Shown: piece by piece, positions 10,085-25,164 of the stretch
Position numbering within the stretch: position 1 is the stretch's first letter
How the letters are laid out: every line of letters begins with the position of its first letter
Source: Thermacetogeniaceae bacterium
GTDB lineage: Bacteria; Bacillota; DSM-12270; Thermacetogeniales; Thermacetogeniaceae
Assembly: GCA_049701555.1 (NCBI GenBank)
Contig: JBNATO010000001.1
Location: 12,380 to 40,131, forward strand
Length of the DNA: 27,752 nucleotides
Reading direction: 5' to 3'
Translations under genes and position numbers: made by a program
The notes under the pieces: model-generated
Databases searched by the model: none
What the model was told of the DNA's origin: nothing
Seen by the model: the letters and a program-made list of their open reading frames with translations, nothing else

Positions 10085-10226
10085 TACCAGACCCCCCAAA
10101 CCCCGAAGTGCCCTCACCTCTAGCTTAACTCCTCCGACCCGCTAAAACAAGCGGGCCAGCCATGGAGATTTTCTCCGGAGCTTAAAGGCACATCTGCACT
10201 CTACTCCCGCGCCCGGACAAAAAAGT

Positions 10227-10276
10227 AGGGAGAGCCTGTCCTTGAGGCCTCGGCCTAACGCGGACAGGCTCTCCCT
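10227..10276 (-). terminator. Rho-independent terminator of the GRE operon
   Basis: 15-bp perfect arms AGGGAGAGCCTGTCC (10227-10241) and GGACAGGCTCTCCCT (10262-10276), followed on minus by ACTTTTTT; about 30 bp after the stop at 10306. Confidence 0.8.
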
Positions 10277-10305: not shown

Positions 10306-11583
10306 CTATGACTCCTCCACCCAGCGCTTGATCTCGCCGTATCCATCCCAGACGACCTCGCCGGTATCCCGCTTGACCATCTTCACAGCGGCCTGCGGGC
10401 AGTTGCCCAGGCACCAGCCGCAGCCCATGCAGTATTCGTCGTTGATCTGAGGGCCTTTTTCCTTATCCAGCGTCAGAGCGCCATACGGGCACAGCCTCTC
10501 GCAGGTGCCGCAGCGGTTGCACTTCTCCAGGTCGTACTGCGGGATGATCGGCGACGGGTGCTGCATCGGGTTCTCACGCGGGAAGTCGCGCAGGTAGGAG
10601 AACCTCGGGACACAGATCCCCAGCATGTCCTTGATGGTCTTGTAGCCCTTGCGGTCCATGAACTCGTTGAGGCCCTCGATGATCTCGCCGATGACCTGGA
10701 CTCCTCTCGTGTAGATCGTGGAGCAGAGCTGCACCGTCGGGCACCCTGCCATGATGTATCTCACCACGTCATCCCAGGTGAAGATCCCGCCGATGCCGGA
10801 GCAGGGGATCTTGACAGTTGCCGTGATCTCCAGCACCTTGGCGAGAGAGAGCGGCTGCCAGGTGCGGCCGGGGAGGAAACCGCAGGAGAAGGGCCCTCCG
10901 TAGAAGGTGCCTGTCTCATGGTCTATCCACGTCCCGTAGAAGGCGTTGTTCGCCGAGATGGCATGTCCTCCCGCCTTCTCCACAGCGAGCGCCACCTCCG
11001 CCATGCGCACGCACTGCGGCGTCATCTTGAACATGATCGGGGTCTTGACAGCCTCAACGCAGGCCTTGGTGACCTCATAGGCCTTCTCGGGGTCCAACGC
11101 CAGCGGAGCCCCTACCTCCTTGTGTTTGGCCTCGGCGCCGAACGTGGCGTGCGGACCGCCTGTGTCCAGCTCGATCATGTCCACACCCAGCTTCTCCATG
11201 TCCACGCAGAGCTCAGCCCAGGTCTCAGCGTTCGTCCCTATCCCGGAGATGCTGGCTATAAACACCACATCGTTCTCCTTGCACAGGTCCCTGATCCTGG
11301 GAGCGATCTCATCGCGCCACTTTTCGTAAGGGATGTGGCTGAACATCTCGGAGCAGATCCAGGTGTCGCGCAGCTCCTTGCCGAAGCGCCTGAGGGAATA
11401 GAAATAGGGCCTAGGCCAGCGGTGGACGCCATCGATCTTGTGGACTGTCTTCGACACCAGCCCACCTATCCCCTGGGCGATGACCCTTTTGGCCATGTGC
11501 AAGGTCTCACCGAAGTCGTTCGAAGAGACGAGCACCGGGTTTTTGAATTTGATGCCGCACATCTCTGTCCTCAAATCAGCCAT
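10306..11583 (-). CDS. Dihydropyrimidine dehydrogenase PreA / DHODH-like FMN enzyme with a C-terminal 2x[4Fe-4S] domain; non-canonical active site
   Basis: GIKFKNP, VSKT, FKMTP, GIGGI, VQLCS; CNRCGTCERLCP and CMGCGWCLGNCP. ELDTGGPH stands in place of ELNxSCP(H/N). RBS GAGGAGG. Confidence 0.85.
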   Translation of the reverse strand: MADLRTEMCGIKFKNPVLVSSNDFGETLHMAKRVIAQGIGGLVSKTVHKIDGVHRWPRPYFYSLRRFGKELRDTWICSEMFSHIPYEKWRDEIAPRIRDLCKENDVVFIASISGIGTNAETWAELCVDMEKLGVDMIELDTGGPHATFGAEAKHKEVGAPLALDPEKAYEVTKACVEAVKTPIMFKMTPQCVRMAEVALAVEKAGGHAISANNAFYGTWIDHETGTFYGGPFSCGFLPGRTWQPLSLAKVLEITATVKIPCSGIGGIFTWDDVVRYIMAGCPTVQLCSTIYTRGVQVIGEIIEGLNEFMDRKGYKTIKDMLGICVPRFSYLRDFPRENPMQHPSPIIPQYDLEKCNRCGTCERLCPYGALTLDKEKGPQINDEYCMGCGWCLGNCPQAAVKMVKRDTGEVVWDGYGEIKRWVEES

Positions 11584-11635: not shown

Positions 11636-12556
11636 TTACATCATCCTGCCGACGGAAACCTTTAAGCCGCATTCCTCAAGGATCGCCTTCGCCCTGGCGA
11701 CATCTTCTTTGGTCAGATCCCGGAAGCTCCCGTACGGAGACTTCATGCCGAGGTAGCCGTACTTGCCTGTTCCCAGCTTGTGCAAGGGATTGAGGTCGAT
11801 CCAGGAGATCCCCAGCTCCCTCGCAAACTCAGCCGTCCTCCTCAGGTTTTCCTCAGAATCGTTGAAGTCCGGGATCAAGGGGAGGGAGATCCTCACCTTT
11901 CCGCTTTTGGCAAGAAGCCTAGCGTTCTCCAGGATCAGCTCGTTGCTGACCCCAGTCCCTTCCTTGTGCCTCTGGGGGTCCATGTGCTTGATATCGAGCA
12001 GGAAGAGGTCTGTCCACTGCAGAGCCTTCTCTATGTTCTCGGGCGAGGTGTAAGCCGTCGTGTCCAACACCGTGGTGATCCCTCTCTCCTTGCATGCCTG
12101 GAGTATGGCAAGAGCAAACCTCGCCTGGTAGAAGGGTTCGCCGCCGCTCAAGGTGACGCCTCCGTCATCGCCGTAAAACGGCAGGTCCTTTTCTACCTCA
12201 GCAACGACCTCAGCGACCGAATACTCCCTTCCAACCTCGATAAAGGCCTGGTTGGGGCAAGCCGCCACGCACTTCATGCAGAGCGTGCACTTCTCCCTGT
12301 CGACCTTGTTCTTTTTGTCCATGCTCAGAGCGCCCGCCGGGCACTCTCTCACACAAGCCCCGTACCCCTGGCACCTCTTGCTGATGAAGTAAAGCTGGCG
12401 CTCCAGCGTCCAGGTCTCGGGGTTGCAGCACCACCTGCAGCGCAGCGGGCACCCCTTGATGAAGACGGTCGTCCTGATCCCTGGGCCATCGTGGGTGGCA
12501 AACCTCTTGATCTCGGTGATGACGCCTCTGATATCTTCCCCAAAGCTCTGAGGCAT
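11636..12556 (-). CDS. Glycyl-radical enzyme activating enzyme (radical SAM, with ferredoxin-like insert)
   Basis: HDGPGIRTTVFIKGCPLRCRWCCNPE, GVTLSGGEP, LDIKHMD. Insert CQGYGACVRECP / CTLCMKCVAACP. Likely start ATG 12556; the ORF track extends it into the upstream gene. Confidence 0.94.
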   Translation of the reverse strand: MPQSFGEDIRGVITEIKRFATHDGPGIRTTVFIKGCPLRCRWCCNPETWTLERQLYFISKRCQGYGACVRECPAGALSMDKKNKVDREKCTLCMKCVAACPNQAFIEVGREYSVAEVVAEVEKDLPFYGDDGGVTLSGGEPFYQARFALAILQACKERGITTVLDTTAYTSPENIEKALQWTDLFLLDIKHMDPQRHKEGTGVSNELILENARLLAKSGKVRISLPLIPDFNDSEENLRRTAEFARELGISWIDLNPLHKLGTGKYGYLGMKSPYGSFRDLTKEDVARAKAILEECGLKVSVGRMM

Positions 12557-12563
12557 CTCAGGA

Positions 12564-13154
12564 TCACTCTTTGATCTTGATCCACGGCGGCCCAAGGGAG
12601 ATGACTTGCCGCTTGAAGGTGCCGTTGAGGATGATGGCAGCGCTCTGCCAGATGATCGTCAGGATCATCAAGGGGAGGTCCCACGTGGCGATGACCCAGA
12701 ACGGTTTGAAAGAGGTCAGGAAGTAGAGCGCAGCAAACAGGAAGAAGACATCAGTCCAGATCATGAAGAGCGTGGGGCCTGTTCCTTTGATCATGTACGC
12801 CGGGGTGAAGCTGATCATCAACAGAGCCATTATCAGAAACACCCAGCCGTCGACCGCAGCGGTGTTGTGCGGCAGCAGCTTCAGGCACTGGAGCAGCTTC
12901 TCGAACATGCCATACCACATGAAGGAGCTGAAAGCCAGCATGATGTTTCCAGGGCCGACCTCTCCTATTCTGAGCTCGATAATCCCTGAGATCACCTGCA
13001 CCAAGCCGCCGCAGAAGCCCAGCGCCACCAGTATGTAAATCAGCTCGTGAGGCGCCATTCCGGCAGCCACAGGCCAGAGACACCCCAGGTAAAATGCGAG
13101 CACCATCATCCCCGCAGGCGCGGGAGTCGCCCAACCCTTATTGTCAGACATCAC
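12564..13154 (-). CDS. GPR1/FUN34/YaaH (AceTr/SatP) family small carboxylate channel
   Basis: About six TM helices; WATPAPAG resembles the NPAPLGL signature; GGLVQVISGIIELRIG and AFSSFMW. RBS AGGAGG. Confidence 0.75.
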   Translation of the reverse strand: MMSDNKGWATPAPAGMMVLAFYLGCLWPVAAGMAPHELIYILVALGFCGGLVQVISGIIELRIGEVGPGNIMLAFSSFMWYGMFEKLLQCLKLLPHNTAAVDGWVFLIMALLMISFTPAYMIKGTGPTLFMIWTDVFFLFAALYFLTSFKPFWVIATWDLPLMILTIIWQSAAIILNGTFKRQVISLGPPWIKIKE

Positions 13155-13188: not shown

Positions 13189-14454
13189 TCATTTCACGCT
13201 CAAGTAGCGGACGAGCACCCTGTAGTTCCAGGGGTAGGGAGAGTTGATCAGGGTCACCTTTTCGATCTCGGAGCGCAGTTCGGCCATGTTCACCCTTCTC
13301 CTCATTGCTCCCAAGAGAATCCCCATCTTATCGGCGTATCTCCCTATCGCCTGAGCCCCTACGAGCACGCCCTCCTTCAAGATCAGCCTGTAGTAGTCGC
13401 CGTCTCTCCGCTTCTCCACAAGCTCCACGCCGGAGGTATCCCCCATCATCGTCAAAGTCCTGCCGATGGATATGGCATGTGTGTGGAAGAAGTGAGCCCT
13501 TGCGAAGTTCCACGCCCCGGCATATCTCTTCCGCAACCCCAGGCAGTTGGCAGCAGCCACCTCGGCCTGCTCCACAGCGTTGTGCTTCAGGAGATAGAGG
13601 GCGCTCTCTCCGGTGATGGCATCCCAGGACTCGACGCAGTCGCCGCAGGCGTAGACGTCTTTCCCGCTGGTCGCCATGTGCTCATCGACCTTGATCCCCC
13701 GCGATCTCGCGACATCGATCCCTGCGTCAGCGGCGATCTTGCTCGAGGGGACGACGCCTGCTGCCACGACCACCGTGTCGCATTTGATCTGGCGCTTGTC
13801 CGTGGTCACTCCCTGCACGCAGCGATCTCCGTCGATGCTCTGCACCTTCTCCTTTACCAGCACATTGATGCCGTTCCTCTCGAGGTCCTCCTTGAGCAGC
13901 TCGGCTGCTTCCCTGTCGAAGACGCGGGGCAGGATCCAATCCATCAGCTCGATCAGGTAGACCTCATAACCCCGCTTTTTCAGCGCCTCGGCAGCCTCGA
14001 TCCCGATCAGACCAGAGCCGATCACAACAGCCGCAGAGCCGCGATGCGCTGCCAAAGCATCGGCGTCGGCGAGGACCTTGCAGCAGAAGACTCCCTTCTT
14101 ATCTACCCCCTTTATCGGTGGAATTACCTGATCGCCCCCTGTGGCGATGATCAGCCTATCGTAATCCAGGGCTTCCCGGTTTTCCAGAACGACCTTCTTC
14201 GCCTGCCTGTCTATTCCCACGGCTCTCGTTCCAAACCTCGTAACGATGCCATCCTGCTCGTAGTCGCTTAACTCTCTGAAAAAGAGCACCTGCCGCGGGA
14301 CATCTCCGCTGACGTAGTATGGAAGGGCACCGGGCTCATATGCCGGGCAGTCTTCGGCTGAGACCATCACTATCTCACAGCTGTGGTCATACCTTCTGAT
14401 GCATCTCGCTGCAGCATTGCCAGCGATGCCGTTCCCGACGATCACGACCCTCAC
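13189..14454 (-). CDS. FAD/NAD(P)-dependent oxidoreductase (AorC / NirB N-terminal / rubredoxin reductase type)
   Basis: IVGNGIAG, ATGG, VIGSGLIGIE, VDEHMATS...YACGDC. Likely start GTG 14454 after RBS GAAGGAG. Confidence 0.88.
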   Translation of the reverse strand: MRVVIVGNGIAGNAAARCIRRYDHSCEIVMVSAEDCPAYEPGALPYYVSGDVPRQVLFFRELSDYEQDGIVTRFGTRAVGIDRQAKKVVLENREALDYDRLIIATGGDQVIPPIKGVDKKGVFCCKVLADADALAAHRGSAAVVIGSGLIGIEAAEALKKRGYEVYLIELMDWILPRVFDREAAELLKEDLERNGINVLVKEKVQSIDGDRCVQGVTTDKRQIKCDTVVVAAGVVPSSKIAADAGIDVARSRGIKVDEHMATSGKDVYACGDCVESWDAITGESALYLLKHNAVEQAEVAAANCLGLRKRYAGAWNFARAHFFHTHAISIGRTLTMMGDTSGVELVEKRRDGDYYRLILKEGVLVGAQAIGRYADKMGILLGAMRRRVNMAELRSEIEKVTLINSPYPWNYRVLVRYLSVK

Positions 14455-14483
14455 AGCATTCACTCCTTCGATGAATGATTCTG

Positions 14484-14514
14484 GAGCCCGGGCCCAGGAG
14501 TCAGGCCCGGGCTC
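14484..14514. repeat. Intergenic GC-rich inverted repeat (11-bp stem, no U-tract)
   Basis: GAGCCCGGGCC-caggagtca-GGCCCGGGCTC between the AOR and FAD genes. Confidence 0.8.
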
Positions 14515-14527
14515 TCTTACCTTCCGC

Positions 14528-16522
14528 TCACGCCTTCCCCTTGGATGCCAGGTATTGGCGGTAGAGCTCCTTCCCTTTTTCAATATCTTCGATTATCTCC
14601 TCGATGCCGAGCTCCTTCGCCTTCTCCGGAGTGATGAATCCGTCATCATCCCAGCCGTGCAGGCGGTAATACTCCGACTGCGCCCATTCCCATTCCTTGC
14701 GGTCGATCTTGATCCCCTTGTAGGGCCCATCGACGACCGGATCCTCGAAGTACCTGTCGATATGGGTGTCGTCCTGGCGGGCGCTCCCCTCTCGGTTCCA
14801 GTGGGCACGCTCGATGTTGATGACGCGCTCCGCAGCCTTGAAGATCTCCTCGTCTGGGAGGTCTACGCCGGTTGCGAGGCGCAAGAGCGGCGTGTACGAC
14901 CTCCAGTCACCCGCACCGCCCCAGGAGCCGATGGCCTGGCAACACATGCCCACAAGGTCAGCGACGCACTTGTTCTTCTCCGACCAGGTGCAGAGCTTGG
15001 GCTTGGTCTTCAGGGTGTAGAGCTCCTTCGGGAAGTCCTTCCAGAACTCCTCGGTCAGCTCAGGCCCAAGGACCTCGGCGACGAGCTCCTTCCGGCTCAT
15101 GGCGCAGCCCTGGAACTCCAGGCAGGAGTAGTTCTTCAGGTGGTCGGAGCCGCGGGTGGACATGGCGTAGCCGAGGCTGAAGCCCATGGCGATCCGCGGG
15201 TCGACGCTGATGTGCTCAAGCCCACGGCAGTGCGGCACGAGCTTTTCGGTGCCGCGCCCGATCTTCTCCGCAGCCCGGATCGCTCCCTCTGCGAGGACGT
15301 CGCCGAAGCCCTTGCGGAAGGCGATCATCTCGAGGACCTTCATGGCGGTGTCGAGGTCGCCCCACTCGAAGGTAAGGCCGCCGGTGTCCTCCTTGGTGAG
15401 CAGCCCCTTCTCCCAGCACTCCATCGCCCAGGAGATGGCCCCACCGGCGGAGATGCTGTCCATCCCTAGATCGTTCACCATACCACAGAGGACGTTGACA
15501 GTTTCCACGTCGTAGGTGTCGAGGCGCGGCCCGAGGTTGCAGACGCTCTCCATCTCCGGCCCGCCGGCATGGAAGCCCGCAAAGCGGCCTTCCTTGATCA
15601 GCGTGTAGCGGCCGCAGCAAACGGGGCAAGACCAGCACCCTTTGCGGCGGAAGAGGAATTTCTCCGCCCACTGGAGGCCGCCGTAGGTCTCCTCAAGGCC
15701 CGGCATGTAGCCTGTGCTCACGTTCCTGTGGGCGTTGATCCCGATGATGTTTCCGGCGTCGAAGAGGTCCATCGTCCCCTCGATGCGGCGCCTGATCGCA
15801 GAGGGAGAGTTGTGGATCTTCTCCCGCAGCGCCCAGCAGGCCTCCGCGAACTCCTTGGGCTTGGCGAAGGTGATCGGGCGGTTCCCCCTGACGGCGATCG
15901 CCTTCAGGTTCTTGGAGCCCATCACAGCGCCCATGCCCGTCCTGCCGCCTGCGGCGCTGAAGGAGTTGACGATGCAGGCGAACCTCACCAGGTTCTCACC
16001 GGCAGGCCCAATGCAGGCGACCCTCACATCGGGGTCATCGAGCTCGTTCAAGATCCTCTTGGTCGTCTCCTTGACGCCCAATCCCCAGAGGTGTGAGGCA
16101 TCGCGGATCTCGATACGGTCGCCGTCGACCAAGATCCAAACAGGCTTGTCCGCCTTCCCTTTGACGACTATCTGGTCGTAGCCGGCGTACTTCATGTAGG
16201 CAGCGAACTGGCCGCCCATGTTGGTGTCGCCATGCCCGTGGACATTGGTGCCTCTGTACGAACAGGTCATCGGGGAGCGCGCCGAGACCGTAGTCCTGCC
16301 GGACAGGGGAGCAAACGTTCCAGCGAGGGGGCCTGTGCCGAAACACAAGGGGTTGGCCGGGTCGAAGGGGTCCATCCCCTGCCATGTCTCGTGGTAGACC
16401 ACCTCTGAGTTGAATCCTCTGCCGCCGATCCACTTTTTGAGGTAATCCAGGCTCAGCTCTTCTATCTCATACTTGCGCTCTGTAAGGTCAATCCTCAACC
16501 TGCGTCCTGCCCAACCATGCAT
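14528..16522 (-). CDS. aor: Aldehyde:ferredoxin oxidoreductase family tungsto/molybdoenzyme, catalytic subunit
   Basis: GWAGRRLRIDLT, IGGRG, AGYDQIVVKG, IGPAGENLV, GMGAVMGSKNLKAI, CWSCPVCC, DPR...STRGSDH, YYRLHGWD. Start ATG 16522 (RBS GGGAGG) or 16531. Confidence 0.93.
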   Translation of the reverse strand: MHGWAGRRLRIDLTERKYEIEELSLDYLKKWIGGRGFNSEVVYHETWQGMDPFDPANPLCFGTGPLAGTFAPLSGRTTVSARSPMTCSYRGTNVHGHGDTNMGGQFAAYMKYAGYDQIVVKGKADKPVWILVDGDRIEIRDASHLWGLGVKETTKRILNELDDPDVRVACIGPAGENLVRFACIVNSFSAAGGRTGMGAVMGSKNLKAIAVRGNRPITFAKPKEFAEACWALREKIHNSPSAIRRRIEGTMDLFDAGNIIGINAHRNVSTGYMPGLEETYGGLQWAEKFLFRRKGCWSCPVCCGRYTLIKEGRFAGFHAGGPEMESVCNLGPRLDTYDVETVNVLCGMVNDLGMDSISAGGAISWAMECWEKGLLTKEDTGGLTFEWGDLDTAMKVLEMIAFRKGFGDVLAEGAIRAAEKIGRGTEKLVPHCRGLEHISVDPRIAMGFSLGYAMSTRGSDHLKNYSCLEFQGCAMSRKELVAEVLGPELTEEFWKDFPKELYTLKTKPKLCTWSEKNKCVADLVGMCCQAIGSWGGAGDWRSYTPLLRLATGVDLPDEEIFKAAERVINIERAHWNREGSARQDDTHIDRYFEDPVVDGPYKGIKIDRKEWEWAQSEYYRLHGWDDDGFITPEKAKELGIEEIIEDIEKGKELYRQYLASKGKA

Positions 16523-16585
16523 AGAGCTCATTCCTCCCTTATGCTGAAATTTCCCTGTTGGTCAGCCTCCCACAAACCCGGGGCA

Positions 16586-17146
16586 TCAACCGAAGCTGAA
16601 GCCGAACTGTATCCCTTCTTCCTTGACGCCCTTGGGCTTAAACTCTTCTTTGAGCTGCCAGGCCAGACCGCGGCCCTTGACCTGCGACACCTTATACTTG
16701 GGAACATACATCAAGGCCTTTTGCATAGTGCACGCCCGGACGCACCAGGGGGTCTCCTCGCCGCCGCAGAGGTCGCAGGTCATCGTCTTCCCGTTCTCGG
16801 GGTTGATCACGGGCGCCCCGTACGGGCAGACGTAGATGCACGCCCTGCAGCCTATGCAGGCATCCTCATTGGTCACCACAGCGCCGCTGGCCAGCCTGAC
16901 CCTGGCACCCATCGGGCAGACCTTGATGCAGGCGGCGTCCGCACATGCCTGGCAAGTTATGGGGATAAAGGTGTTGACCTCGCGGAACTCCTGGATCCTG
17001 ATCCTCGAATAGTTGGGATGGTTCTTCTGGAAGTGCTTCATCGAGCAGGCCATCTCGCACGAATGGCAGCCAGCGCACTTCTCGGGGTCGATGACGATCA
17101 CCATCTGATTCATCTCTGCTACCTTCACTCGATCTCTCTCATCCAT
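16586..17146 (-). CDS. 4x[4Fe-4S] electron-transfer subunit (DmsB/NrfC/AorA type)
   Basis: CAGCHSCEMAC, CQACADAACIKVCP, CIGCRACIYVCP, CDLC...CVRAC. Start ATG 17146 after RBS GAGGAGG. Confidence 0.92.
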   Translation of the reverse strand: MDERDRVKVAEMNQMVIVIDPEKCAGCHSCEMACSMKHFQKNHPNYSRIRIQEFREVNTFIPITCQACADAACIKVCPMGARVRLASGAVVTNEDACIGCRACIYVCPYGAPVINPENGKTMTCDLCGGEETPWCVRACTMQKALMYVPKYKVSQVKGRGLAWQLKEEFKPKGVKEEGIQFGFSFG

Positions 17147-17207
17147 CAGCCACACACTCCTCCTCGTTTTTCTTTTATCCGACACCGGCAAACCGCTGAG
17201 GGCAGTC

Positions 17208-17251
17208 CCCTGCTGCGGCAGGGGGCCAGAAGGGGCTCTGCCGCAGCAGGG
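17208..17251. repeat. Intergenic GC-rich inverted repeat (14-bp stem, no U-tract)
   Basis: CCCTGCTGCGGCAG (17208-17221) and CTGCCGCAGCAGGG (17238-17251), between the hydrolase and Fe-S genes. Confidence 0.8.
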
Positions 17252-17258
17252 CAAACCT

Positions 17259-18317
17259 TTAGGCAAGCCCGATCAGCTTCGCCGGGACTTCCTTGGCCAT
17301 GACGTTGATGTCAGCCTCATCTACTCCCTGAGACATGAGGATCCTCAGGAAGTGCCACCAGCCGGTAACAGGCTCATTCCCGGGCTGGCCGGCATCGCTC
17401 GCCAGCACCAGATGGTCGGGGCCCTTTTCCTTGATCAGCTCTTTGATCAGGTTCATCGAGTAGTCGAACGCCACAACCCAGTCCTGCATTCCTGGCCAGG
17501 GGATGCAAGAGCACTCACAGAACTGCATGTAAGCGCCGAGGTCGATCATCTCCTTCGCTTCCTCAGGGGTGACGATCGTCAGCTCTTGCGTGCAGTGGTC
17601 GACGACGCAGTCGACATCGATGCCTCTCCTCTTGATGTACTTGAGGATCGCCACCTTCTCCTCATTGGAGACATGGCAGAGGGCAAGCACGCAGCGTTCA
17701 CCTTTCCTGTTCTTGTTGAAGTCTGCGATGATGTCGATGATCTCCTTCATCTTGTCGACAGGCTCGTCGCCCTCAGCCACCACGATCCCGCCTTCCAGCC
17801 CCATAGCTGCCCTCTGGTGCCAGGCGTCAAGGGACGGCAGCCAGATCGTCCTGCACCGCCCGTAGCCGAGGGCTGTCTGCACCATCTTGGGGTTCAGGCC
17901 GCCCACCGACTCGTTCAGCGTCACCCCGCCGTAGACCTCGACAGGCGTGAACTCCTTGCCCTGCGCCTCCAGTTCCTTCTTCAGCGCATCCATCATCTCG
18001 GTGATAACCGTGGCCGCATGGTGTGTCCAGCAGTTGTGGTCCTTGAAGACTAGAGCCCTCATCCCCGCCTTGCTAGCCTCGAGGCAGGTCTCGGTCATCG
18101 GCGGGCGCCCTGCCAGCCAGGCTCCCATCGGCGCCCCGTGGATGTGGATATCGATCACACCCTTCAGGACCTCGTTGACCTTCTCCCGCTCCACCGGCCT
18201 GCCGGGGTTGAAGTACTTGTACGGCCATACCTCGCTGGTGCGTCGCTGCAGCTCCTCCTCGGTGATCACGCGGCCAAACTTCTTCGCCTTCCACTCTTCA
18301 TGCGCCTTTACCTTCAC
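17259..18317 (-). CDS. Amidohydrolase-superfamily metal-dependent hydrolase, DUF6282-like
   Basis: IDIHIHGAP (HxH), FKDH, GGVTLN...GGLNP, LCHVS, VVDH, LASDAGQ metal-ligand pattern. The DUF6282 call is from memory. Confidence 0.72.
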   Translation of the reverse strand: MKVKAHEEWKAKKFGRVITEEELQRRTSEVWPYKYFNPGRPVEREKVNEVLKGVIDIHIHGAPMGAWLAGRPPMTETCLEASKAGMRALVFKDHNCWTHHAATVITEMMDALKKELEAQGKEFTPVEVYGGVTLNESVGGLNPKMVQTALGYGRCRTIWLPSLDAWHQRAAMGLEGGIVVAEGDEPVDKMKEIIDIIADFNKNRKGERCVLALCHVSNEEKVAILKYIKRRGIDVDCVVDHCTQELTIVTPEEAKEMIDLGAYMQFCECSCIPWPGMQDWVVAFDYSMNLIKELIKEKGPDHLVLASDAGQPGNEPVTGWWHFLRILMSQGVDEADINVMAKEVPAKLIGLA

Positions 18318-18379: not shown

Positions 18380-20851
18380 TTACAGTTCCTCGAACTCCGT
18401 TCTCTCGATGATCTGCCGCTGTACATCTGGGCCGAGGTCGATGAACCTGGCGGTGAACCCGGCGACCCTGACCATCAGGTCGGGGTACTTCTCGGGGTGC
18501 TTCTGGGCGTCCAGCAGCATCCTCCTGTCGACGATGTTGAACTGGATCTGGTAGCCACCGAGGCGGAAATAGGTGTCACAGAGCCTGATGAACTTCTCGG
18601 TGCCGATGTCACCGGAGACGGCAGCTGGGTTGAACTTCATGTTGAAGAGCGTCGCCTGCAGGTTGTCAGCATGGACCTTGGCCGCAGACTTGATCATGCT
18701 CGTGGGGCCATTCACGTCAGTGCCGGGGAATGCCGAGATAGCGCCGTCTGCCAGGTAATCGCCCGCCTTTCGGCCATCAGGGCTGGCGCCGCAGGCCTTT
18801 CCGTGCAGGACCTGTGTCGTCACAGAGAGGGTGCTCGGGCGCCAGGGCTCGCCCAGCCAGTTCAATCTCTTCTGAGCGCTCTCAGACCAGGCGTCGTAGA
18901 GGTCCACCAGGATCTGGTCGACATAGTCGTCGTCGTTGCCGTACTTCGGGGCTTCCTTCAGCTTGCGGCGCAGGAGCTCATGGCCCTCGAAGTTGTCGGC
19001 AAGCGCCTTCTTGATCTCCTGGATGGTGTAAACCTTGTCCTCGTAGACGAGCTTCTTGAGCGCAGCCAGGCTGTTGGCGACGTTGACCATGCCGCAGGTG
19101 ATCACGTAAGCGGGGTCGTTGTAGCGGCAACCTCCCTCATAGGCGTGCATCCCCTTTTCCAAACAGTCGTCGAGGAGGGCAGACATGAAGGGGTGAACGA
19201 GGCCGAGCTCGTTGTGCACCAGCATGATGGTGTTCCAGTACTCTTCCTGGCGGTCTACGATCAGGTCCATGATCCTCTTGTACTCAGCGACGATCTCCTC
19301 GTATGTGGCCTTTTCGGCATCGATCTGGGTATCCACGAGCTTATCGCCGGTCACAGGGTTTACCCCGTTGTTGAGGACGAGCTCCAGGATCTTTAGGTTG
19401 TTGGTATGTGGTATGGCGTACATCGGCATCCTCTTGCCGCAGATCTGTATGTCCACGCAGCCGCAGGGAGCCCAGTCCCTGGCGTCCTCTAGGTTGGCGC
19501 CGGTCACTCTCATAAACCTCTGTGTGGCCAACTCATCGTTGAACAGCGCCGGGTAACCGTTTCCAGCCTTGATCGCCTCTATAACCTTCCTCTTGAACTC
19601 CTTGCTCATATCCTCGCGCCAGCGCACAGAGATCGTCGGCTGCCATGTCTTCACGTTGATCCCTGCCTGCAGGATAAGGCGCGACAGCTCGTTGTCCGCA
19701 GGGCGCCCGTAACGGTCTACACCGCCGATGGTCAAGTTCTGGTATACGCTGCCGCCGAGGTAAGACTCCGTAAACGTGGCGTGCGCTCTGGTGATCTCCG
19801 AGCATTTGATCCGCATCAGCTCCAGCAGCTCCAAGGCCTGCGCCTCTGTGATCCTGCCGGAGTCGATGTCGTTCTTAAACGGCCTGTACATGTACTGGTC
19901 GAATCTCCCCGGCGAAATCCCTCTCCCGTTGAGCTCGATGAAGAGGCAGACATGGGTGAACCAGAACGACTGCATCGCCTCGTGGAAGGTATCGGCGGGC
20001 TTCCTCGGGACCTTGCGGCAGATCCTGGCGATCTCTAGAAGCTCCTGCTTTCTCCTGTCATCCTTACACTCCGCCGCCAGCCTCTCGGCCTCTCTGGCAT
20101 AGTTTTCGGCAAAGGCGATGACACCCTCGAGAGCCAGTATGGTCCCTTTGTAGAAGTTGTACTTGTCGAGCTTCTCCTTTGTGTTCAGCTGTCCAAGCCT
20201 GGCGATCTTCTCCTCGATGAGGGCGATCAAGGCCTCAAGGCCGAGGTCGATCACCTTCTGGTAGTCGACGATGACCCTCCCCTCAGGAACATCGAACATG
20301 AACCTCAAGAAAACCAGCTGCTGCTGCCACTTCTCCACCTGGTCGAAGTCGGGCATCGTCGCCTTGAGATACCTCTCGGCCACGCTCCTCCAGTCGCGGC
20401 CCTCCCAGAACTTGCAGACCTCAAGGATCTTCTCCTGGTCCTCCTCGTAGATCCTGTAGATCCCCAGCCTGTTTCCGCCGCGCTCCTGCAAGGTTCCCTT
20501 GATGTAGCGCTCCTCGACCCTCTTGATGTTCTTGAACCCCTCGAGCATCCACGTCTCGTACTCAGGGTAGACCTGCGTCCCGCGGAAGTACCTGGAGATG
20601 TTCCCGACTATCAGCTCCTCGTCCCAGATCCTCGGGGTGAGGTTTTCCAGGACGTACTTCAGAGCACCGCCTGCCCTCAGGTAGACCGGCTCGTTCCAGT
20701 GCTCCTTCATGTACTCGGTGAACAGCACCGCACGCTCAGAGTCGATAAAGGGCTCCTCAGAGACCAAAGCTTCAAACCTCTTCTTCACGCGCTCTGTCGA
20801 AGGAGCCCCCTTTACCTCCCTGTCGACGTACGCCACCTCTCCCTTCGACAT
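18380..20851 (-). CDS. Glycyl radical enzyme (PFL-like superfamily) of unknown specificity, resembling the arylacetate-decarboxylase group
   Basis: Gly loop VRVAGF (18455-18469), Cys loop APCGCVD (CGCVD at 19451-19465), ELIVG, SPGRFDQY, GNGYPALFND, PKYGNDDDYVD, QFNIVD. Start ATG 20851 after GGGGGAG; 823 aa. Confidence 0.95.
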   Translation of the reverse strand: MSKGEVAYVDREVKGAPSTERVKKRFEALVSEEPFIDSERAVLFTEYMKEHWNEPVYLRAGGALKYVLENLTPRIWDEELIVGNISRYFRGTQVYPEYETWMLEGFKNIKRVEERYIKGTLQERGGNRLGIYRIYEEDQEKILEVCKFWEGRDWRSVAERYLKATMPDFDQVEKWQQQLVFLRFMFDVPEGRVIVDYQKVIDLGLEALIALIEEKIARLGQLNTKEKLDKYNFYKGTILALEGVIAFAENYAREAERLAAECKDDRRKQELLEIARICRKVPRKPADTFHEAMQSFWFTHVCLFIELNGRGISPGRFDQYMYRPFKNDIDSGRITEAQALELLELMRIKCSEITRAHATFTESYLGGSVYQNLTIGGVDRYGRPADNELSRLILQAGINVKTWQPTISVRWREDMSKEFKRKVIEAIKAGNGYPALFNDELATQRFMRVTGANLEDARDWAPCGCVDIQICGKRMPMYAIPHTNNLKILELVLNNGVNPVTGDKLVDTQIDAEKATYEEIVAEYKRIMDLIVDRQEEYWNTIMLVHNELGLVHPFMSALLDDCLEKGMHAYEGGCRYNDPAYVITCGMVNVANSLAALKKLVYEDKVYTIQEIKKALADNFEGHELLRRKLKEAPKYGNDDDYVDQILVDLYDAWSESAQKRLNWLGEPWRPSTLSVTTQVLHGKACGASPDGRKAGDYLADGAISAFPGTDVNGPTSMIKSAAKVHADNLQATLFNMKFNPAAVSGDIGTEKFIRLCDTYFRLGGYQIQFNIVDRRMLLDAQKHPEKYPDLMVRVAGFTARFIDLGPDVQRQIIERTEFEEL

Positions 20852-20915
20852 ACTTTCGTCTCCCCCTCTCACGCACAATTTAAACTTTTTCCTGCTGAAC
20901 CGCAGAAGAGTTGCA

Positions 20916-22677: not shown

Positions 22678-22756
22678 TTTGATGACTAACAAGAGAAAAA
22701 TTTAGCGACCTTTTTATCAGCAGCTTGGTTAGAAATACTCTGGAGGAGTGATCTCA

Positions 22757-23629
22757 GTGTTTTCCTCAATTGACGAGCTTCAGCAGAAGTTCTCAGAGTG
22801 CCAGTATATCGTCGATCGCCCCGTAGCCACAGTGGTTTACCTTGCTCTCAAGCTCCAAAAACCCATTTTGGTAGAGGGGCCCGCCGGAGTGGGGAAAACG
22901 GAACTCGCCCGAGTTTTGGCTGAGTCTACCAACAGCCCTCTGATCCGACTTCAGTGCTATGAAGGTCTCGATGAGGCGAAGGCGCTTTATGAGTGGAATT
23001 ATCAGAAACAGCTGCTGCGCCTTTACCTCGATCAGGCGCAGCAAAAAACCTGGGACGAAACCAAACATAACATCTTCACTGAGGAATTTCTGCTCGCCAG
23101 GCCTTTGCTGAAGTCCCTCCTTTCTGAGAGGCCTGCGGTGTTGTTGATCGACGAGGTCGACAAGAGCGATGAAGAGTTTGAAAGCTTCCTCTTAGAGATC
23201 TTATCCGACTACCAGGTGAGCATTCCGGAGTTCGGAACAGTGAAAGCAAAGCACATCCCTGTTGTTGTGCTCACCAGCAACAACTCCCGCGACTTCGGTG
23301 ATGCCCTCAAGAGGAGGTGTGTCCATCTTTACCTCGATTATCCTTCATATGAAAGGGAACTGGAGATCGTTCGTCTCAAAGTTCCTGGGATTAAAGAGGC
23401 TTTAGCCCGCCAGCTCGTTCGTTTTGTCCAAAATTTACGGGGGCAAAAGTTGAAAAAGGCACCCAGCATTGCCGAAACCATCGAGTGGGCGCAGGCCTTG
23501 CTCGCCCTTGGGGTTGACTCTCTTGATGCGGAAACCGTTGAAAGCACCTTGGGGATCTTGCTGAAGTATCAGAGTGACATCGAAAAGGTGACCGCGAAAA
23601 AGGTGGCATCTCTTTTGCCAGGCCAGTAA
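22757..23629 (+). CDS. MoxR-family AAA+ ATPase (CoxD-like)
   Basis: Walker A GPAGVGKT, RLQCYEGLD...ALYEWNY, Walker B LLIDEVDK, LTSN, DALKRRC. Start GTG 22757 fits RBS GGAGG (ORF track gives 22748). Confidence 0.92.
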   Translation: MFSSIDELQQKFSECQYIVDRPVATVVYLALKLQKPILVEGPAGVGKTELARVLAESTNSPLIRLQCYEGLDEAKALYEWNYQKQLLRLYLDQAQQKTWDETKHNIFTEEFLLARPLLKSLLSERPAVLLIDEVDKSDEEFESFLLEILSDYQVSIPEFGTVKAKHIPVVVLTSNNSRDFGDALKRRCVHLYLDYPSYERELEIVRLKVPGIKEALARQLVRFVQNLRGQKLKKAPSIAETIEWAQALLALGVDSLDAETVESTLGILLKYQSDIEKVTAKKVASLLPGQ

Positions 23630-23650
23630 GCGGAAGGACGGCTGTCGTTC

Positions 23651-24202
23651 ATGGAAGAGAAGGTGTTGGAGTTCTGTCGCCTCCTGCGAAAGTATGGACT
23701 CGTTGTTTCCTTTTCTCAGATCATTGACGTCCTCAAAGCGGTCGCTGAGGTTGGCTTCGACCGCGAGGACTTCTATCACGCTCTGAGAGCGATTCTCATT
23801 GTCGAGCAGGAAGATCTCCCACTTTTCGACAATCTCTTCAGGCTTTACTTCCAGCAGCCGCTGTCCAAGTATAAAAAGCCGAAGGATAGCAAGGCTTCTG
23901 ATTTTGATGATGCCGGAAACCCCGAAGGCAAAGATATCGAAATGACCGAAAGCGCTGAGGGAGCAGGGATGGGCGTCGAGGGGGAGCAGCTCCCTCCCGG
24001 TTCTCCCGCCCATCTCCTCGCCAAGGCTGTGCTCGAAGGCAACTATCCCCTCCTGCGAGCGCTCGCTGACATGGGCGTGCGCAGCCTAGGCAGGCTCAAG
24101 CCGGAAGACTTCAAAAGGATGGATGACTTGATCGAGCAGGCCAAGAAAAACATCGGTTGGGACGAGGCCCTGGAGATCCTCTTCCCCTCTCGCGGTTTTT
24201 AA
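23651..24202 (+). CDS. N-terminal part of a CoxE-like VWA protein (split gene, part 1)
   Basis: EFCRLLRKYGL...DREDFYHALRAIL...LPLFDNLFRLYF is a typical CoxE N-terminus; ends at TAA 24200-24202 with no VWA domain. Confidence 0.7.
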   Translation: MEEKVLEFCRLLRKYGLVVSFSQIIDVLKAVAEVGFDREDFYHALRAILIVEQEDLPLFDNLFRLYFQQPLSKYKKPKDSKASDFDDAGNPEGKDIEMTESAEGAGMGVEGEQLPPGSPAHLLAKAVLEGNYPLLRALADMGVRSLGRLKPEDFKRMDDLIEQAKKNIGWDEALEILFPSRGF

Positions 24203-24261
24203 TCCAGGGTTTTTGAACCTCCGCCCGTGTGTTGGCTTGGATTGAGAAAGGAGAGAGACTA

Positions 24262-25164
24262 TTGAAGGGAACAGCCTTTTTTCGACCTGCTGCAGATGAC
24301 CCTGCAGTGCTGTTCGAACGCCTCCACTATGTTGAAGAAACGATGAAAAAGATCCTTTTGGAGATCTTCGAGAAACGGGTCGGAGTGGATGTTGTGGAAC
24401 AGACCCTGGGCTCTTTTAACCCGGAGCAGATGGAGTTCTACCAACTCGACAAACCAGAAATTTACCAGCTTGAGATCGAAGAGATCAAGCGGCGGATCGC
24501 CAAGCTTTCCAGAAAATTGGCCTGCAGGTATGCCCGGCGCTACCGGAAGGCAAAGCACGGGAGGATCGATCTCAGGAGAACGATCGCCAATGCCATGAAG
24601 ACCGGCGGAATCCCCATCACCCTCAAACACAGGAAAAGGATTATCAGCAAGCCGGAGATCGTCCTTCTCTGCGATGTCTCGGGGTCTGTGGCTGTTTTCA
24701 GTGAGTTTATGCTTCAGCTGGTCTATACCATCCAGAATAAATTCCGGGCAGTGCGTTCTTTCCTTTTTATAGATGCCATCGATGAGGTTACTGACTGCTT
24801 TCTCAGGAACCCCATCGAAGAAGCGATCGGCGAGGCCTTCGCCAACGCCAAGTTCGCTTTCTCCGGTTTTTCCGATTACGGCAGGGTGTTTGCCATGTTT
24901 GTAAACAAGTACCTTCCCACTGTCTCCCCGAAGAGCACGGTGATCATCCTGGGTGATGCCAGAAACAACGGCTATCCCGATGACCGCAAATTTTTGGAGA
25001 AGATCAGAAACCGCGTCAAGAGGGTTCTTTGGTTTAACCCTCAACCTCAGGAACAGTGGGACAAAGAGGACAGCATCATGAGCGTCTACGCTCAGTACTG
25101 CGACCAGGTCTTCGAATGCCGCAACCTCAAGCAGCTGGAGAAGGCAGTCGAGGCGATCGTCTGA
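24262..25164 (+). CDS. C-terminal VWA domain of a CoxE-like protein (split gene, part 2)
   Basis: GRIDLRRTI, MIDAS LLCDVSGSV, SDYG, IILGDARNN, WFNPQP. Likely start TTG 24262, 8 nt after AAAGGAG; the open frame begins at GTG 24229. Confidence 0.75.
   Translation: MKGTAFFRPAADDPAVLFERLHYVEETMKKILLEIFEKRVGVDVVEQTLGSFNPEQMEFYQLDKPEIYQLEIEEIKRRIAKLSRKLACRYARRYRKAKHGRIDLRRTIANAMKTGGIPITLKHRKRIISKPEIVLLCDVSGSVAVFSEFMLQLVYTIQNKFRAVRSFLFIDAIDEVTDCFLRNPIEEAIGEAFANAKFAFSGFSDYGRVFAMFVNKYLPTVSPKSTVIILGDARNNGYPDDRKFLEKIRNRVKRVLWFNPQPQEQWDKEDSIMSVYAQYCDQVFECRNLKQLEKAVEAIV

What the first reader, a model, noticed from the sequence alone, without database searches (positions are those of the whole stretch)
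10306..11583. PreA/DHODH-like flavoenzyme with a rebuilt active site and no catalytic Cys
Seen: ELDTGGPH (11149-11172), WICSEMFS and ANNAF. Established: dihydropyrimidine dehydrogenase uses ELNLSCPH (Asn668, catalytic Cys671 in the pig enzyme), FLNIELIS (Asn609) and ATNTV (Asn736/Thr737). By-eye alignment gives N609C, N668D, C671G and T737A. The FMN-binding lysines (SKT, FKMTP) and both ferredoxin motifs are intact. Inference: an active ferredoxin-linked reductase or dehydrogenase for a non-pyrimidine substrate with a relocated acid/base. No PreT or PyrK partner is in the window; the AOR Fe-S/FAD subunits could supply electrons.
Basis: partly seen in the sequence, partly recalled or inferred. 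Interest (0 to 1): 0.75.

Follow-up and report, generated by a model that had tools for sequence, protein, structure and literature searches.

The report
Cysteine-less PreA-like reductase beside radical enzyme
This gene encodes an intact iron-sulfur flavoenzyme related to the enzymes that reduce uracil and orotate, but its substrate pocket is rebuilt and lacks the catalytic cysteine; more than a hundred relatives keep that pocket and usually sit next to the activator of an unstudied radical enzyme, so it probably reduces an unknown ring compound in an undescribed anaerobic breakdown pathway.

Summary
ORF 10306-11583 (-) encodes a 425-aa DHOD/DPD-type FMN barrel with a C-terminal 2x[4Fe-4S] domain. 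All quoted motifs lie at the stated coordinates. A HMMER alignment to pig DPD reproduces N609C, N668D, C671G and T737A.

This is not decay. The loop ELDTGGPH is nearly invariant in over 100 sequence clusters (46-92% identity). These form one long-stemmed clade that scores below the NCBIfam cut-offs for PreA and PyrD. The genome has a separate, canonical PyrD.

- In most related loci the gene lies directly downstream of a glycyl-radical-enzyme activase.
- A highly conserved orphan radical enzyme and a DUF6282 amidohydrolase are usually nearby.
- AorABC is present in only about half of the loci.
- None of 78 loci of other radical-enzyme families carries it.
- About 11 copies stand alone.

Best reading (0.55): a ferredoxin-driven ring or ene reductase, paired with the hydrolase as PydAc/PydB and UacX/SsnA are. 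The substrate is unknown. The proposed relocated acid/base is not shown, because C77 and D140 both vary.

An earlier scan note flagged a distant PreA-like protein without PreT in another genome.

The parts
10306..11583 (-). PreA-like Fe-S flavoprotein gene (425 aa), the last gene of the operon
   Evidence: ORF. Pfam DHO_dh 80 bits plus Fer4. AF2 model pLDDT 96.2. Foldseek top hits are pig DPD domains IV-V.
10594..11583 (-). FMN-binding TIM barrel (about aa 1-330)
   Evidence: PF01180 matches aa 4-309. The alignment to DPD covers residues 531-845. K45, K186, G265, G266 and G294 are conserved.
11149..11172 (-). Active-site loop ELDTGGPH. D140 replaces Asn668, G142 replaces Ser670 and G143 replaces the catalytic Cys671.
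   Evidence: G142, G143, P144 and H145 are 100% conserved in 103 family members. Cys occupies the G143 position in 89 of 129 outgroup sequences.
11338..11361 (-). WICSEMFS segment. C77 replaces Asn609. M80 and F81 are family-specific invariants.
   Evidence: C77 varies to S, G, A or T in some members.
10939..10953 (-). ANNAF segment. N213 corresponds to Asn736 and is retained. A214 replaces Thr737. N212 is family-specific.
10369..10551 (-). C-terminal ferredoxin domain with two [4Fe-4S] motifs (C355/358/361/365 and C385/388/391/395)
   Evidence: Pfam Fer4, Fer4_7 and related models on aa 347-405. All eight Cys are invariant.
10309..10368 (-). Family-specific C-terminal tail (aa 406-425) with conserved W412, G414, G416 and W421
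   Evidence: at least 96% conserved in the family, mostly gaps in the outgroup.
10219..10275 (-). Intrinsic terminator after the stop codon: a 15-bp outer stem (with an inner 4-bp stem in the loop) followed by a U-run
   Evidence: Sequence. Fold energy -38.9 kcal/mol, z = -5.9, 0 of 200 shuffles fold as well.
11636..12595 (-). Glycyl-radical-enzyme activase, directly upstream (52-nt gap)
   Evidence: TIGR02494 336.7 bits against a cut-off of 174. It is directly upstream on the same strand in 31 of 41 callable loci.
17259..18317 (-). DUF6282 amidohydrolase-fold protein, the proposed ring-opening partner
   Evidence: PF19799 134 bits; weak PTE and dihydroorotase matches. It co-occurs in 24 or more loci.
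18380..20878 (-). Orphan glycyl radical enzyme with a CGCVD Cys loop at aa 472
   Evidence: PFL-like plus Gly_radical. It scores below every NCBIfam equivalog cut-off. It is 68-87% identical across phyla, and its Cys loop is invariant.
13189..17266 (-). AorABC-type tungsten aldehyde oxidoreductase (Fe-S, AOR and FAD subunits), an optional module of the cassette
   Evidence: Pfam and NCBIfam. Present in 14-16 loci.

Best explanation
The gene encodes a stand-alone FMN and 2x[4Fe-4S] oxidoreductase of the DHOD/DPD superfamily. It most likely acts as a low-potential (ferredoxin-type) two-electron reductase of a C=C or C=N bond in a small cyclic amide, ureide or lactone that is not uracil, thymine or orotate.

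Proposed mechanism:
- Electrons enter through the exposed C-terminal ferredoxin domain and pass through the two clusters to FMN.
- FMNH2 delivers a hydride to the substrate stacked on the flavin. K45, N212 and N213 hold the substrate in a pocket that is enlarged by N609C, S670G, C671G and T737A.
- A donor other than the classical Cys supplies the proton. Candidates are water or the family-invariant H48, H145 or Y216.

Proposed role: in the operon the reduction is coupled to ring hydrolysis by the DUF6282 amidohydrolase. The orphan glycyl radical enzyme acts before or after this pair. The aldehyde oxidoreductase, where present, balances the redox budget.

Shown: fold, cofactor sites, active-site remodelling, family conservation and gene linkage. 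Inferred: direction, electron donor, substrate class and proton donor.
For: - Fold and cofactor sites are intact: AF2 pLDDT 96, Foldseek top hits are DPD domains IV-V, and K45, K186, the GG phosphate motif and all eight cluster Cys are conserved.
- The remodelled pocket is under selection in more than 100 clusters. These form one clade with 100/100 support on a long stem.
- There is no PreT/PyrK in the window, and one is rare elsewhere. Characterised FAD-less PydA homologues use reduced ferredoxin or methyl viologen: PydAc (PMC7332683) and UacX (PMC12507026).
- In those systems, and in PydA/PydB, the reductase works with an amidohydrolase that opens the reduced ring. YgfK and UacX activity was detected only when coupled to SsnA (PMC12507026). 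Here DUF6282 is a conserved neighbour.
- Other neighbour families are typical of N-heterocycle catabolism: PucR regulators in 9 loci, XDH-type Mo enzymes (L009, L027, L045) and HyuA/HyuB in L027. The sister family P0111 sits beside XdhC and an XDH-type enzyme.
- Eleven copies stand alone. Five of those genomes lack the orthologous radical enzyme and DUF6282, including a genome held as one 8.2-Mb chromosome record. The enzyme therefore has a function of its own.
- The operon contains one oxidation (AOR) and one reduction, which fits a redox-balanced fermentation.
Against: - No substrate is identified and no proton donor is located.
- DUF6282 is itself uncharacterised and is not a PF01979-type dihydropyrimidinase.
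- The pathway model does not explain why the gene is tied to the activase gene more tightly than to DUF6282 or the radical enzyme.
- Sequence does not establish the direction of catalysis.
- The heterocycle-type neighbours occur in a minority of loci.
- This protein has one ferredoxin domain, whereas PydAc has two (PMC7332683).
Confidence: 0.55

Rival explanations
1. It is the same enzyme working in the oxidative direction. Like DHOD, it dehydrogenates a saturated ring or acid at the FMN site and passes electrons out through the Fe-S clusters to ferredoxin, AorA/AorC or another acceptor.
For: The superfamily includes dehydrogenases such as PyrD. The clusters can carry electrons either way. AorABC with an NAD-linked FAD subunit is nearby in about half of the loci.
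Against: From general knowledge, saturated/unsaturated C-C couples lie near 0 mV, so reducing ferredoxin-type clusters would be unfavourable. The characterised FAD-less homologues PydAc and UacX are reductases (PMC7332683, PMC12507026). The catalytic base (Cys or Ser) that DHODs need to abstract a proton is missing.
Confidence: 0.15
2. It is a dedicated redox partner of the glycyl-radical-enzyme activase. The FMN and Fe-S chain supplies the single electron needed for reductive cleavage of S-adenosylmethionine, and the 'substrate' pocket binds only an electron-donating metabolite or nothing.
For: The activase gene lies directly upstream on the same strand in 31 of 41 callable loci, and in about 39 by tblastn. 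The median gap is about 45 nt. This pair stays together while the radical enzyme, DUF6282 and AOR genes change position. Loss of the catalytic Cys would not matter for a pure electron-transfer role.
Against: None of 78 metagenomic loci of other radical-enzyme families has a PreA-like neighbour, although 59 of them carry an activase, so activases do not generally need such a partner. Eleven family members stand alone with no activase within 10 kb, and five of those genomes lack the orthologous radical enzyme. The pocket residues (N212, N213, the ATFGA loop, Y216) are conserved as strictly as a real substrate site would be. No precedent is known.
Confidence: 0.1
3. It is an electron-transfer or extra catalytic subunit of the AorABC aldehyde oxidoreductase, as the first reader suggested for electron supply.
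For: It is co-transcribed with AorABC here and in 14-16 related loci. Both carry ferredoxin-type clusters.
Against: AorABC is absent from the Bacillota- and Actinomycetota-type cassettes (DUF6282, activase, PreA-like, radical enzyme). It is replaced by an XDH-type enzyme in L009. AorABC of Aromatoleum is complete with three subunits (general knowledge).
Confidence: 0.05
4. It is an ordinary PreA (dihydropyrimidine dehydrogenase subunit) or a class 1B PyrD, as automatic annotation says.
For: Public annotations call relatives 'PreA' or 'dihydroorotate dehydrogenase family protein'. The best NCBIfam hit is the PreA model.
Against: The PreA model scores 214 bits against a cut-off of 335, and the PyrD 1B model 151 against 269. 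The catalytic Cys and two of the three pyrimidine-binding Asn, plus Thr737, are replaced in the whole family. There is no PreT or PyrK. The genome has a separate canonical PyrD with the N/N/S/C signature.
Confidence: 0.02
5. It is a decaying or inactive paralogue.
For: It has lost the residue that is essential in its characterised relatives.
Against: The substitutions are shared by more than 100 clusters across at least six phyla at 46-92% identity. Dozens of family-specific residues are invariant and the cofactor sites are intact. Contigs about 90% identical cover the gene in a hot-spring RNA library, which is weak evidence.
Confidence: 0.01

Closest known systems
PreA / mammalian dihydropyrimidine dehydrogenase domains IV-V (pig DPD, PDB 1H7W/1GTH; E. 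coli PreA)
   Same: The FMN TIM barrel plus C-terminal 2x[4Fe-4S] domain is the same and gives the top sequence and structure matches. The FMN lysines, N736 and the 'PH' after the loop are retained.
   Different: The catalytic Cys671 is Gly. Asn609, Asn668, Ser670 and Thr737 are replaced. There is no PreT or FAD/NAD(P)H module. The protein scores below the NCBIfam PreA cut-off. It has a family-specific C-terminal tail. It lies in a radical-enzyme operon rather than a pyrimidine one.
PydAc, ferredoxin-dependent dihydropyrimidine dehydrogenase of Clostridium chromiireducens (PMC7332683)
   Same: It is a PydA homologue without the FAD/NADPH domains. It is driven by reduced ferredoxin or methyl viologen and is encoded next to a ring-opening amidohydrolase.
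   Different: PydAc keeps two ferredoxin domains (four clusters) and reduces uracil. This protein has one ferredoxin domain and a non-pyrimidine pocket. Its hydrolase neighbour is DUF6282, not PydB.
UacX (with SsnA), the 2,8-dioxopurine ('yanthine') reductase of the reductive uric acid pathway in C. difficile (PMC12507026)
   Same: It is a FAD-less PydA homologue that dearomatises a non-pyrimidine N-heterocycle with a low-potential donor. Its activity is obligatorily coupled to an amidohydrolase. This shows that the architecture has been recruited to new ring substrates.
   Different: UacX clusters contain XdhD, SsnA, HyuA, YgeX and YgeY and no glycyl radical enzyme. The loci here contain none of that set apart from occasional XDH-type genes. 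No sequence comparison with UacX could be made with these tools.
Class 1B dihydroorotate dehydrogenase PyrD (L. lactis DHODB, PDB 1EP3/5UE9)
   Same: It shares the barrel and the FMN site, with Foldseek target-normalised TM-scores of 0.83-0.89 (query-normalised 0.62-0.65).
   Different: PyrD has no fused ferredoxin domain, uses PyrK, and has the catalytic Cys and the Asn set. The genome carries its own PyrD elsewhere.

Membership tests
PreA, NAD-dependent dihydropyrimidine dehydrogenase subunit (NCBIfam NF006183) | Whole-protein score at or above the curated equivalog cut-off (335 bits) | tested here: not met
   214.1 bits
PreA / DPD | Catalytic Cys in the active-site loop (Cys671 of pig DPD; N-x-S-C-P motif) | tested here: not met
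   Gly143 aligns with Cys671. Gly is 100% conserved in 103 family members.
PreA / DPD | Pyrimidine-binding Asn609, Asn668, Asn736 and Thr737 | tested here: not met
   Only Asn736 (N213) is retained. The other three positions are C77, D140 and A214.
PreA / DPD | PreT-type partner (Fer4_20 plus FAD/NAD(P)H) encoded beside it or fused to it | tested here: not met
   None in the window. tblastn with E. coli PreT finds a full-length hit in 1 of 62 loci and partial hits in 2.
PreA / DPD | FMN TIM barrel plus C-terminal 2x[4Fe-4S] ferredoxin domain | tested here: met
PreA / DPD | Uracil/thymine reductase activity | not testable with these tools
   Needs an enzyme assay.
Class 1B dihydroorotate dehydrogenase PyrD (NF005574 / TIGR01037) | Score above the cut-off (269 / 270 bits) and the catalytic Cys | tested here: not met
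   150.9 and 155.2 bits. No Cys. A separate PyrD in the genome scores 277 bits on PF01180 and has the N/N/S/C signature.
DHO_dh superfamily (Pfam PF01180) | Domain score above the gathering threshold (27 bits) | tested here: met
   80 bits, aa 4-309
FAD-less ferredoxin-dependent PydA-type reductases (PydAc, UacX) | No FAD/NAD(P)H domain or subunit; Fe-S entry domain only | tested here: met
   The difference is one ferredoxin domain here against two in PydAc (PMC7332683).
FAD-less ferredoxin-dependent PydA-type reductases (PydAc, UacX) | Encoded with a ring-opening amidohydrolase | tested here: inconclusive
   A DUF6282 amidohydrolase-fold gene is a conserved neighbour. Its activity is unknown and it belongs to a different family from PydB and SsnA.
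FAD-less ferredoxin-dependent PydA-type reductases (PydAc, UacX) | Reduced ferredoxin or viologen-dependent reduction of a heterocycle | not testable with these tools
   Needs an anaerobic assay.

The most novel reading that the evidence does not exclude
The PreA-like protein is a dedicated reductase of the neighbouring glycyl-radical-enzyme activase. It would be a built-in FMN and Fe-S electron source that primes radical formation. This would explain why its gene is welded to the activase gene across phyla, and it would name a physiological reductant that is unknown for most activases.
Probability: 0.1. Interest if true: 0.85.

Novelty: new variant of a known kind. Interest (0 to 1): 0.6.

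Why it matters
- The DHOD/DPD fold is a textbook case of Cys- or Ser-assisted flavin catalysis. A large, conserved subfamily that dispenses with that residue must protonate its substrate differently or perform different chemistry.
- The family is one of three conserved enzymes of an orphan glycyl-radical pathway. That pathway is found in syntrophs, subsurface thermophiles, peat Bacteroidota and gut Eggerthellaceae, so the enzyme is a practical entry point for finding the pathway's substrate.
- The flavoenzyme is far easier to assay, by viologen oxidation, than the radical enzyme.
- The family is currently mis-annotated as PreA or dihydroorotate dehydrogenase in public databases.
- A cultured carrier, Pelotomaculum schinkii, makes experiments feasible.

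Tried and rejected
- **Complex prediction.** Complex prediction of the PreA-like protein with the activase returned 'no answer' (score 0.00). This is neither evidence for nor against binding.
- **Literature.** No paper mentions DUF6282. None links a glycyl radical enzyme with a DHOD/DPD-like gene. The Pelotomaculum and indoleacetate searches gave nothing relevant.
- **Eubacterium barkeri nicotinate paper.** It describes 6-hydroxynicotinate reductase plus enamidase, a further analogy recalled from memory. It is not held, so that analogy is not used as evidence.
- **Relocated acid/base.** I considered C77 or D140 as the relocated residue and downgraded both, because both vary within the family.
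- **Stand-alone copies.** I looked for a common partner gene and found none. Neighbours are sensors, MFS transporters and mobile-element genes. Only L027 is informative.
- **Metagenome scan with the radical-enzyme alignment.** It used patterns too general to enrich orthologues, and only 2 of 80 loci were orthologous. It did serve as a negative control for other radical-enzyme families.
- **Model coordinates.** The AF2 coordinates are not exposed to scripts, so distances from candidate proton donors to FMN could not be measured.
- **Atlas and earlier-findings look-ups.** These added only automatic names.
Full report
**1.
The minus-strand ORF 10306-11583 encodes 425 aa. It has an ATG start preceded by GAGGAGG. 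A strong intrinsic terminator follows it (a 15-bp outer stem with an inner 4-bp stem in the loop, then a U-run; -38.9 kcal/mol, z = -5.9), so it is the last gene of its operon. Every quoted motif is at the stated place: ELDTGGPH at aa 138-145 = 11149-11172, WICSEMFS at aa 75-82, ANNAF at aa 211-215, SKT at aa 44-46 and FKMTP at aa 185-189.

Pfam finds a DHO_dh barrel (80 bits) and a C-terminal 2x[4Fe-4S] domain. The HMMER alignment to pig dihydropyrimidine dehydrogenase pairs C77 with N609, D140 with N668, G142 with S670, G143 with C671, N213 with N736 and A214 with T737. A MAFFT alignment that includes E. coli PreA and the genome's own PyrD gives the same columns. PreA reads K-N-E..E-N-F-S-C-P and this protein reads K-C-E..E-D-T-G-G-P.

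An AlphaFold2 model built on 146 sequences has pLDDT 96.2. Its best PDB matches are pig DPD domains IV-V (E 4e-29, TM 0.80 on the query), followed by class 1B DHOD.

**2. It is a discrete, conserved family and not a decayed copy.**
- A search of 5.8 billion proteins returns more than 100 clusters at 46-92% identity, then a sharp drop to 38%.
- In a library clustered at 50% identity, only two full-length representatives exceed 50%. The next is at 36%.
- A maximum-likelihood tree puts all members in one clade with 100/100 support on a stem of 1.64 substitutions per site.
- The loop is ELDTGGPH, or differs from it by one residue, in essentially all members.
- G142, G143, P144 and H145 are 100% conserved in 103 members. 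Cys fills the G143 position in 89 of 129 outgroup sequences.
- Further family-specific invariants are H48, W56, M80, F81, Y86, C101, the ATFGA stretch after H145, N212, Y216, R240, K249, R275, Y291, R332, E337 and a C-terminal tail with W412 and W421.
- The two residues that could be taken for a relocated acid/base are not invariant. Position 77 is C, S, G, A or T, and position 140 is D or, in about 8% of members, N.
- The cofactor sites are intact: K45, K186, G265-G266 and all eight cluster cysteines.

**3. It is not PreA or PyrD.**
The NCBIfam PreA equivalog scores 214 bits against a cut-off of 335. The PyrD 1B models score 151-155 against 269-270. The genome has a separate PyrD (277 bits on PF01180) with the canonical Asn/Asn/Ser/Cys signature. 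No PreT-like gene is in the window. Among 62 related loci, E. coli PreT finds one full-length relative (L020, Fer4_20 plus Pyr_redox_2) and two partial hits that belong to OYE-type enzymes.

**4. Context.**
The family occurs in 62 loci of species-representative genomes from Bacillota, Bacteroidota, Thermodesulfobacteriota and other former 'Deltaproteobacteria', Actinomycetota (Eggerthellaceae and Thermoleophilia), Synergistota and Coatesbacteria. Most are metagenome-assembled genomes.

- In 31 of 41 loci with enough upstream sequence, a glycyl-radical-enzyme activase lies directly upstream on the same strand, with a median gap of about 45 nt. tblastn finds about 39 such loci.
- A radical enzyme that is 68-87% identical across phyla (mean column identity 77%, invariant CGCVD loop) and a DUF6282 amidohydrolase-fold protein are in the same cassette.
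- The gene order varies by lineage:
  - Bacillota and Actinomycetota: DUF6282, activase, PreA-like, radical enzyme.
  - Most others: radical enzyme, AorABC, (AceTr), DUF6282, activase, PreA-like.
  - This window's clade: radical enzyme, DUF6282, AorABC, AceTr, activase, PreA-like.
  Only the activase/PreA-like pair never separates.
- AorABC is present in 14-16 loci. In L009 a three-subunit XDH-type Mo enzyme and an ADP-forming acyl-CoA synthetase occupy its place.
- Regulators are sigma-54 plus a GAF-PAS kinase here and in P. schinkii, and PucR-family proteins in nine Bacillota and Actinomycetota loci. Transporters are AceTr-like or MFS.
- As a control, 78 metagenomic loci of other radical-enzyme families (33-44% identity; 59 of the 80 scanned loci carry an activase) contain no PreA-like or DUF6282 gene. 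Both orthologous loci in that scan contain DUF6282, and the longer one contains the PreA-like gene. The link is therefore specific to this one radical-enzyme family.

**5. Stand-alone copies.**
Eleven loci have the gene with no activase, radical enzyme or DUF6282 within up to 10 kb. These copies are scattered through the tree (six changes of state), so they are not a separate subfamily. In five such genomes, including one held as a single 8.2-Mb Desulfatiglandales chromosome record, the best radical-enzyme match is only 33-36% identical and PF19799 is not found. That search rang nowhere, including the controls, and no positive control on the own genome was run.

Their neighbours are sensors, MFS transporters or unrelated genes. 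The exception is L027, where the gene sits among HyuA/HyuB (ATP-dependent lactamase type), a PaaK-like CoA ligase, a three-subunit XDH-type enzyme and a CoA transferase. The enzyme can therefore work without the radical system.

**6. Best explanation.**
Two characterised relatives show what a FAD-less PydA-type protein does.
- PydAc reduces uracil with reduced ferredoxin or methyl viologen next to PydB (PMC7332683).
- UacX reduces 2,8-dioxopurine, and its activity is detectable only when coupled to the amidohydrolase SsnA (PMC12507026).

The same pairing of an Fe-S flavoprotein with a metal amidohydrolase is conserved here. The occasional neighbours (PucR, XDH-type enzymes, hydantoinase A/B), and the XdhC/XDH context of the sister family P0111, are typical of heterocycle catabolism.

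I therefore read the protein as a low-potential ring or ene reductase for an unknown cyclic amide, ureide or lactone. Four positions are changed to smaller residues (N609C, S670G, C671G, T737A), which should enlarge the pocket. Protonation would be Cys-independent. The glycyl radical enzyme would act on the ring-opened product or generate the unsaturated substrate. From general knowledge, this resembles HypD followed by pyrroline-5-carboxylate reductase. The aldehyde oxidoreductase would balance the two electrons.

Confidence is 0.55. Fold, cofactors, remodelling and linkage are shown. Direction, donor, substrate class and proton donor are inferred.

**7. Rivals.**
- The oxidative direction (0.15) is disfavoured by thermodynamics and by the missing base.
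- A dedicated activase reductase (0.10) is the only reading that explains the unbreakable activase/PreA-like gene pair. It conflicts with the stand-alone copies, with the substrate-like conservation of the pocket, and with the absence of such a partner from 78 other radical-enzyme loci. A complex prediction gave no answer.
- An AorABC accessory subunit (0.05) fails because AorABC is optional.
- Canonical PreA/PyrD (0.02) and decay (0.01) are rejected by sections 2 and 3.

**8. Environment and tractability.**
Near-identical DNA occurs in crude-oil, subsurface and hot-spring metagenomes. Contigs about 90% identical cover the whole operon, including this gene, in a hot-spring RNA library. This is weak evidence of expression because DNA carry-over is not excluded. 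The cultured syntroph Pelotomaculum schinkii carries the complete operon, with the PreA-like protein 64% identical.

**9. Novelty.**
The fold and the general logic are known. The Cys-less pocket, the single-ferredoxin architecture and the obligate association with one orphan radical-enzyme family are not described in the searched literature. I rate this a new variant of a known kind, with interest 0.6.

Noticed in passing
L027:946-13032 (Pseudomonadota MAG): A family member sits in a cluster of HyuA/HyuB (ATP-dependent hydantoinase/oxoprolinase type), a PaaK-like CoA ligase, a three-subunit XDH-type Mo enzyme and an acetyl-CoA hydrolase/transferase. No radical enzyme is present. This looks like an independent heteroaromatic degradation cluster that uses the same reductase.
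   Followed up: partly
L009:161-11278 (Bacteroidales MAG): The position held elsewhere by AorABC is occupied by an ADP-forming acyl-CoA synthetase and a three-subunit XDH-type Mo enzyme. This suggests that an aldehyde oxidation step is conserved but the enzyme is interchangeable, and that an acyl-CoA may be formed.
   Followed up: partly
L015, L018, L019, L020, L029, L032, L037, L043, L055: In Bacillota and Actinomycetota the cassette is flanked by a PucR-family regulator instead of the sigma-54 activator and GAF-PAS kinase pair seen in this window and in P. schinkii.
   Followed up: partly
L070:3720-8444 and L071: A sister family (about 36% identity, loop ELDLGCPH, Cys retained) lies between XdhC, DUF1989 and an XDH-type Mo enzyme. 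The neighbouring genes look archaeal.
   Followed up: no
proteins P0109-P0140: The DHO_dh-plus-ferredoxin architecture comprises many uncharacterised families with non-canonical active-site loops, for example ELNTSGPY, EVATAYT and ELNLHAIP. Loss or replacement of the catalytic Cys has happened repeatedly.
   Followed up: no
L007, L018, L020 (one Clostridium MAG); L038 and L042 (Rubneribacter); L031 and L040, L026 and L039 (Deltaproteobacteria MAGs): Several genomes carry two or three copies of the cassette or of the PreA-like gene. The pocket and the radical-enzyme Cys loop are essentially unchanged between copies.
   Followed up: partly
L075:9694-9930 (P. schinkii): A 78-aa ThiS/MoaD-like ubiquitin-fold gene is inserted between the activase and the PreA-like gene. 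In this window a MoaD-like gene lies instead in the divergent MoxR-VWA-MoaD-MoeB arm.
   Followed up: no
window 22748-25164: A MoxR-type AAA protein and a VWA (CoxE-like) protein recur near the cassette in L022, L024 and L045. From memory, benzylsuccinate synthase operons also carry a MoxR-type chaperone (BssE), so these may serve the radical enzyme rather than the tungsten enzyme.
   Followed up: no
window 12564-13154: The 196-aa membrane protein matches acetate-uptake (AceTr/SatP) models only weakly (23.6 bits against a cut-off of 50). It is nevertheless conserved in 10 loci between AorC and DUF6282 or the activase.
   Followed up: no
L078-L080 (metagenome contigs): A sister radical-enzyme family (42-44% identity to this one) lies near an AOR-family gene (32% identity) but has no PreA-like or DUF6282 neighbour.
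   Followed up: no
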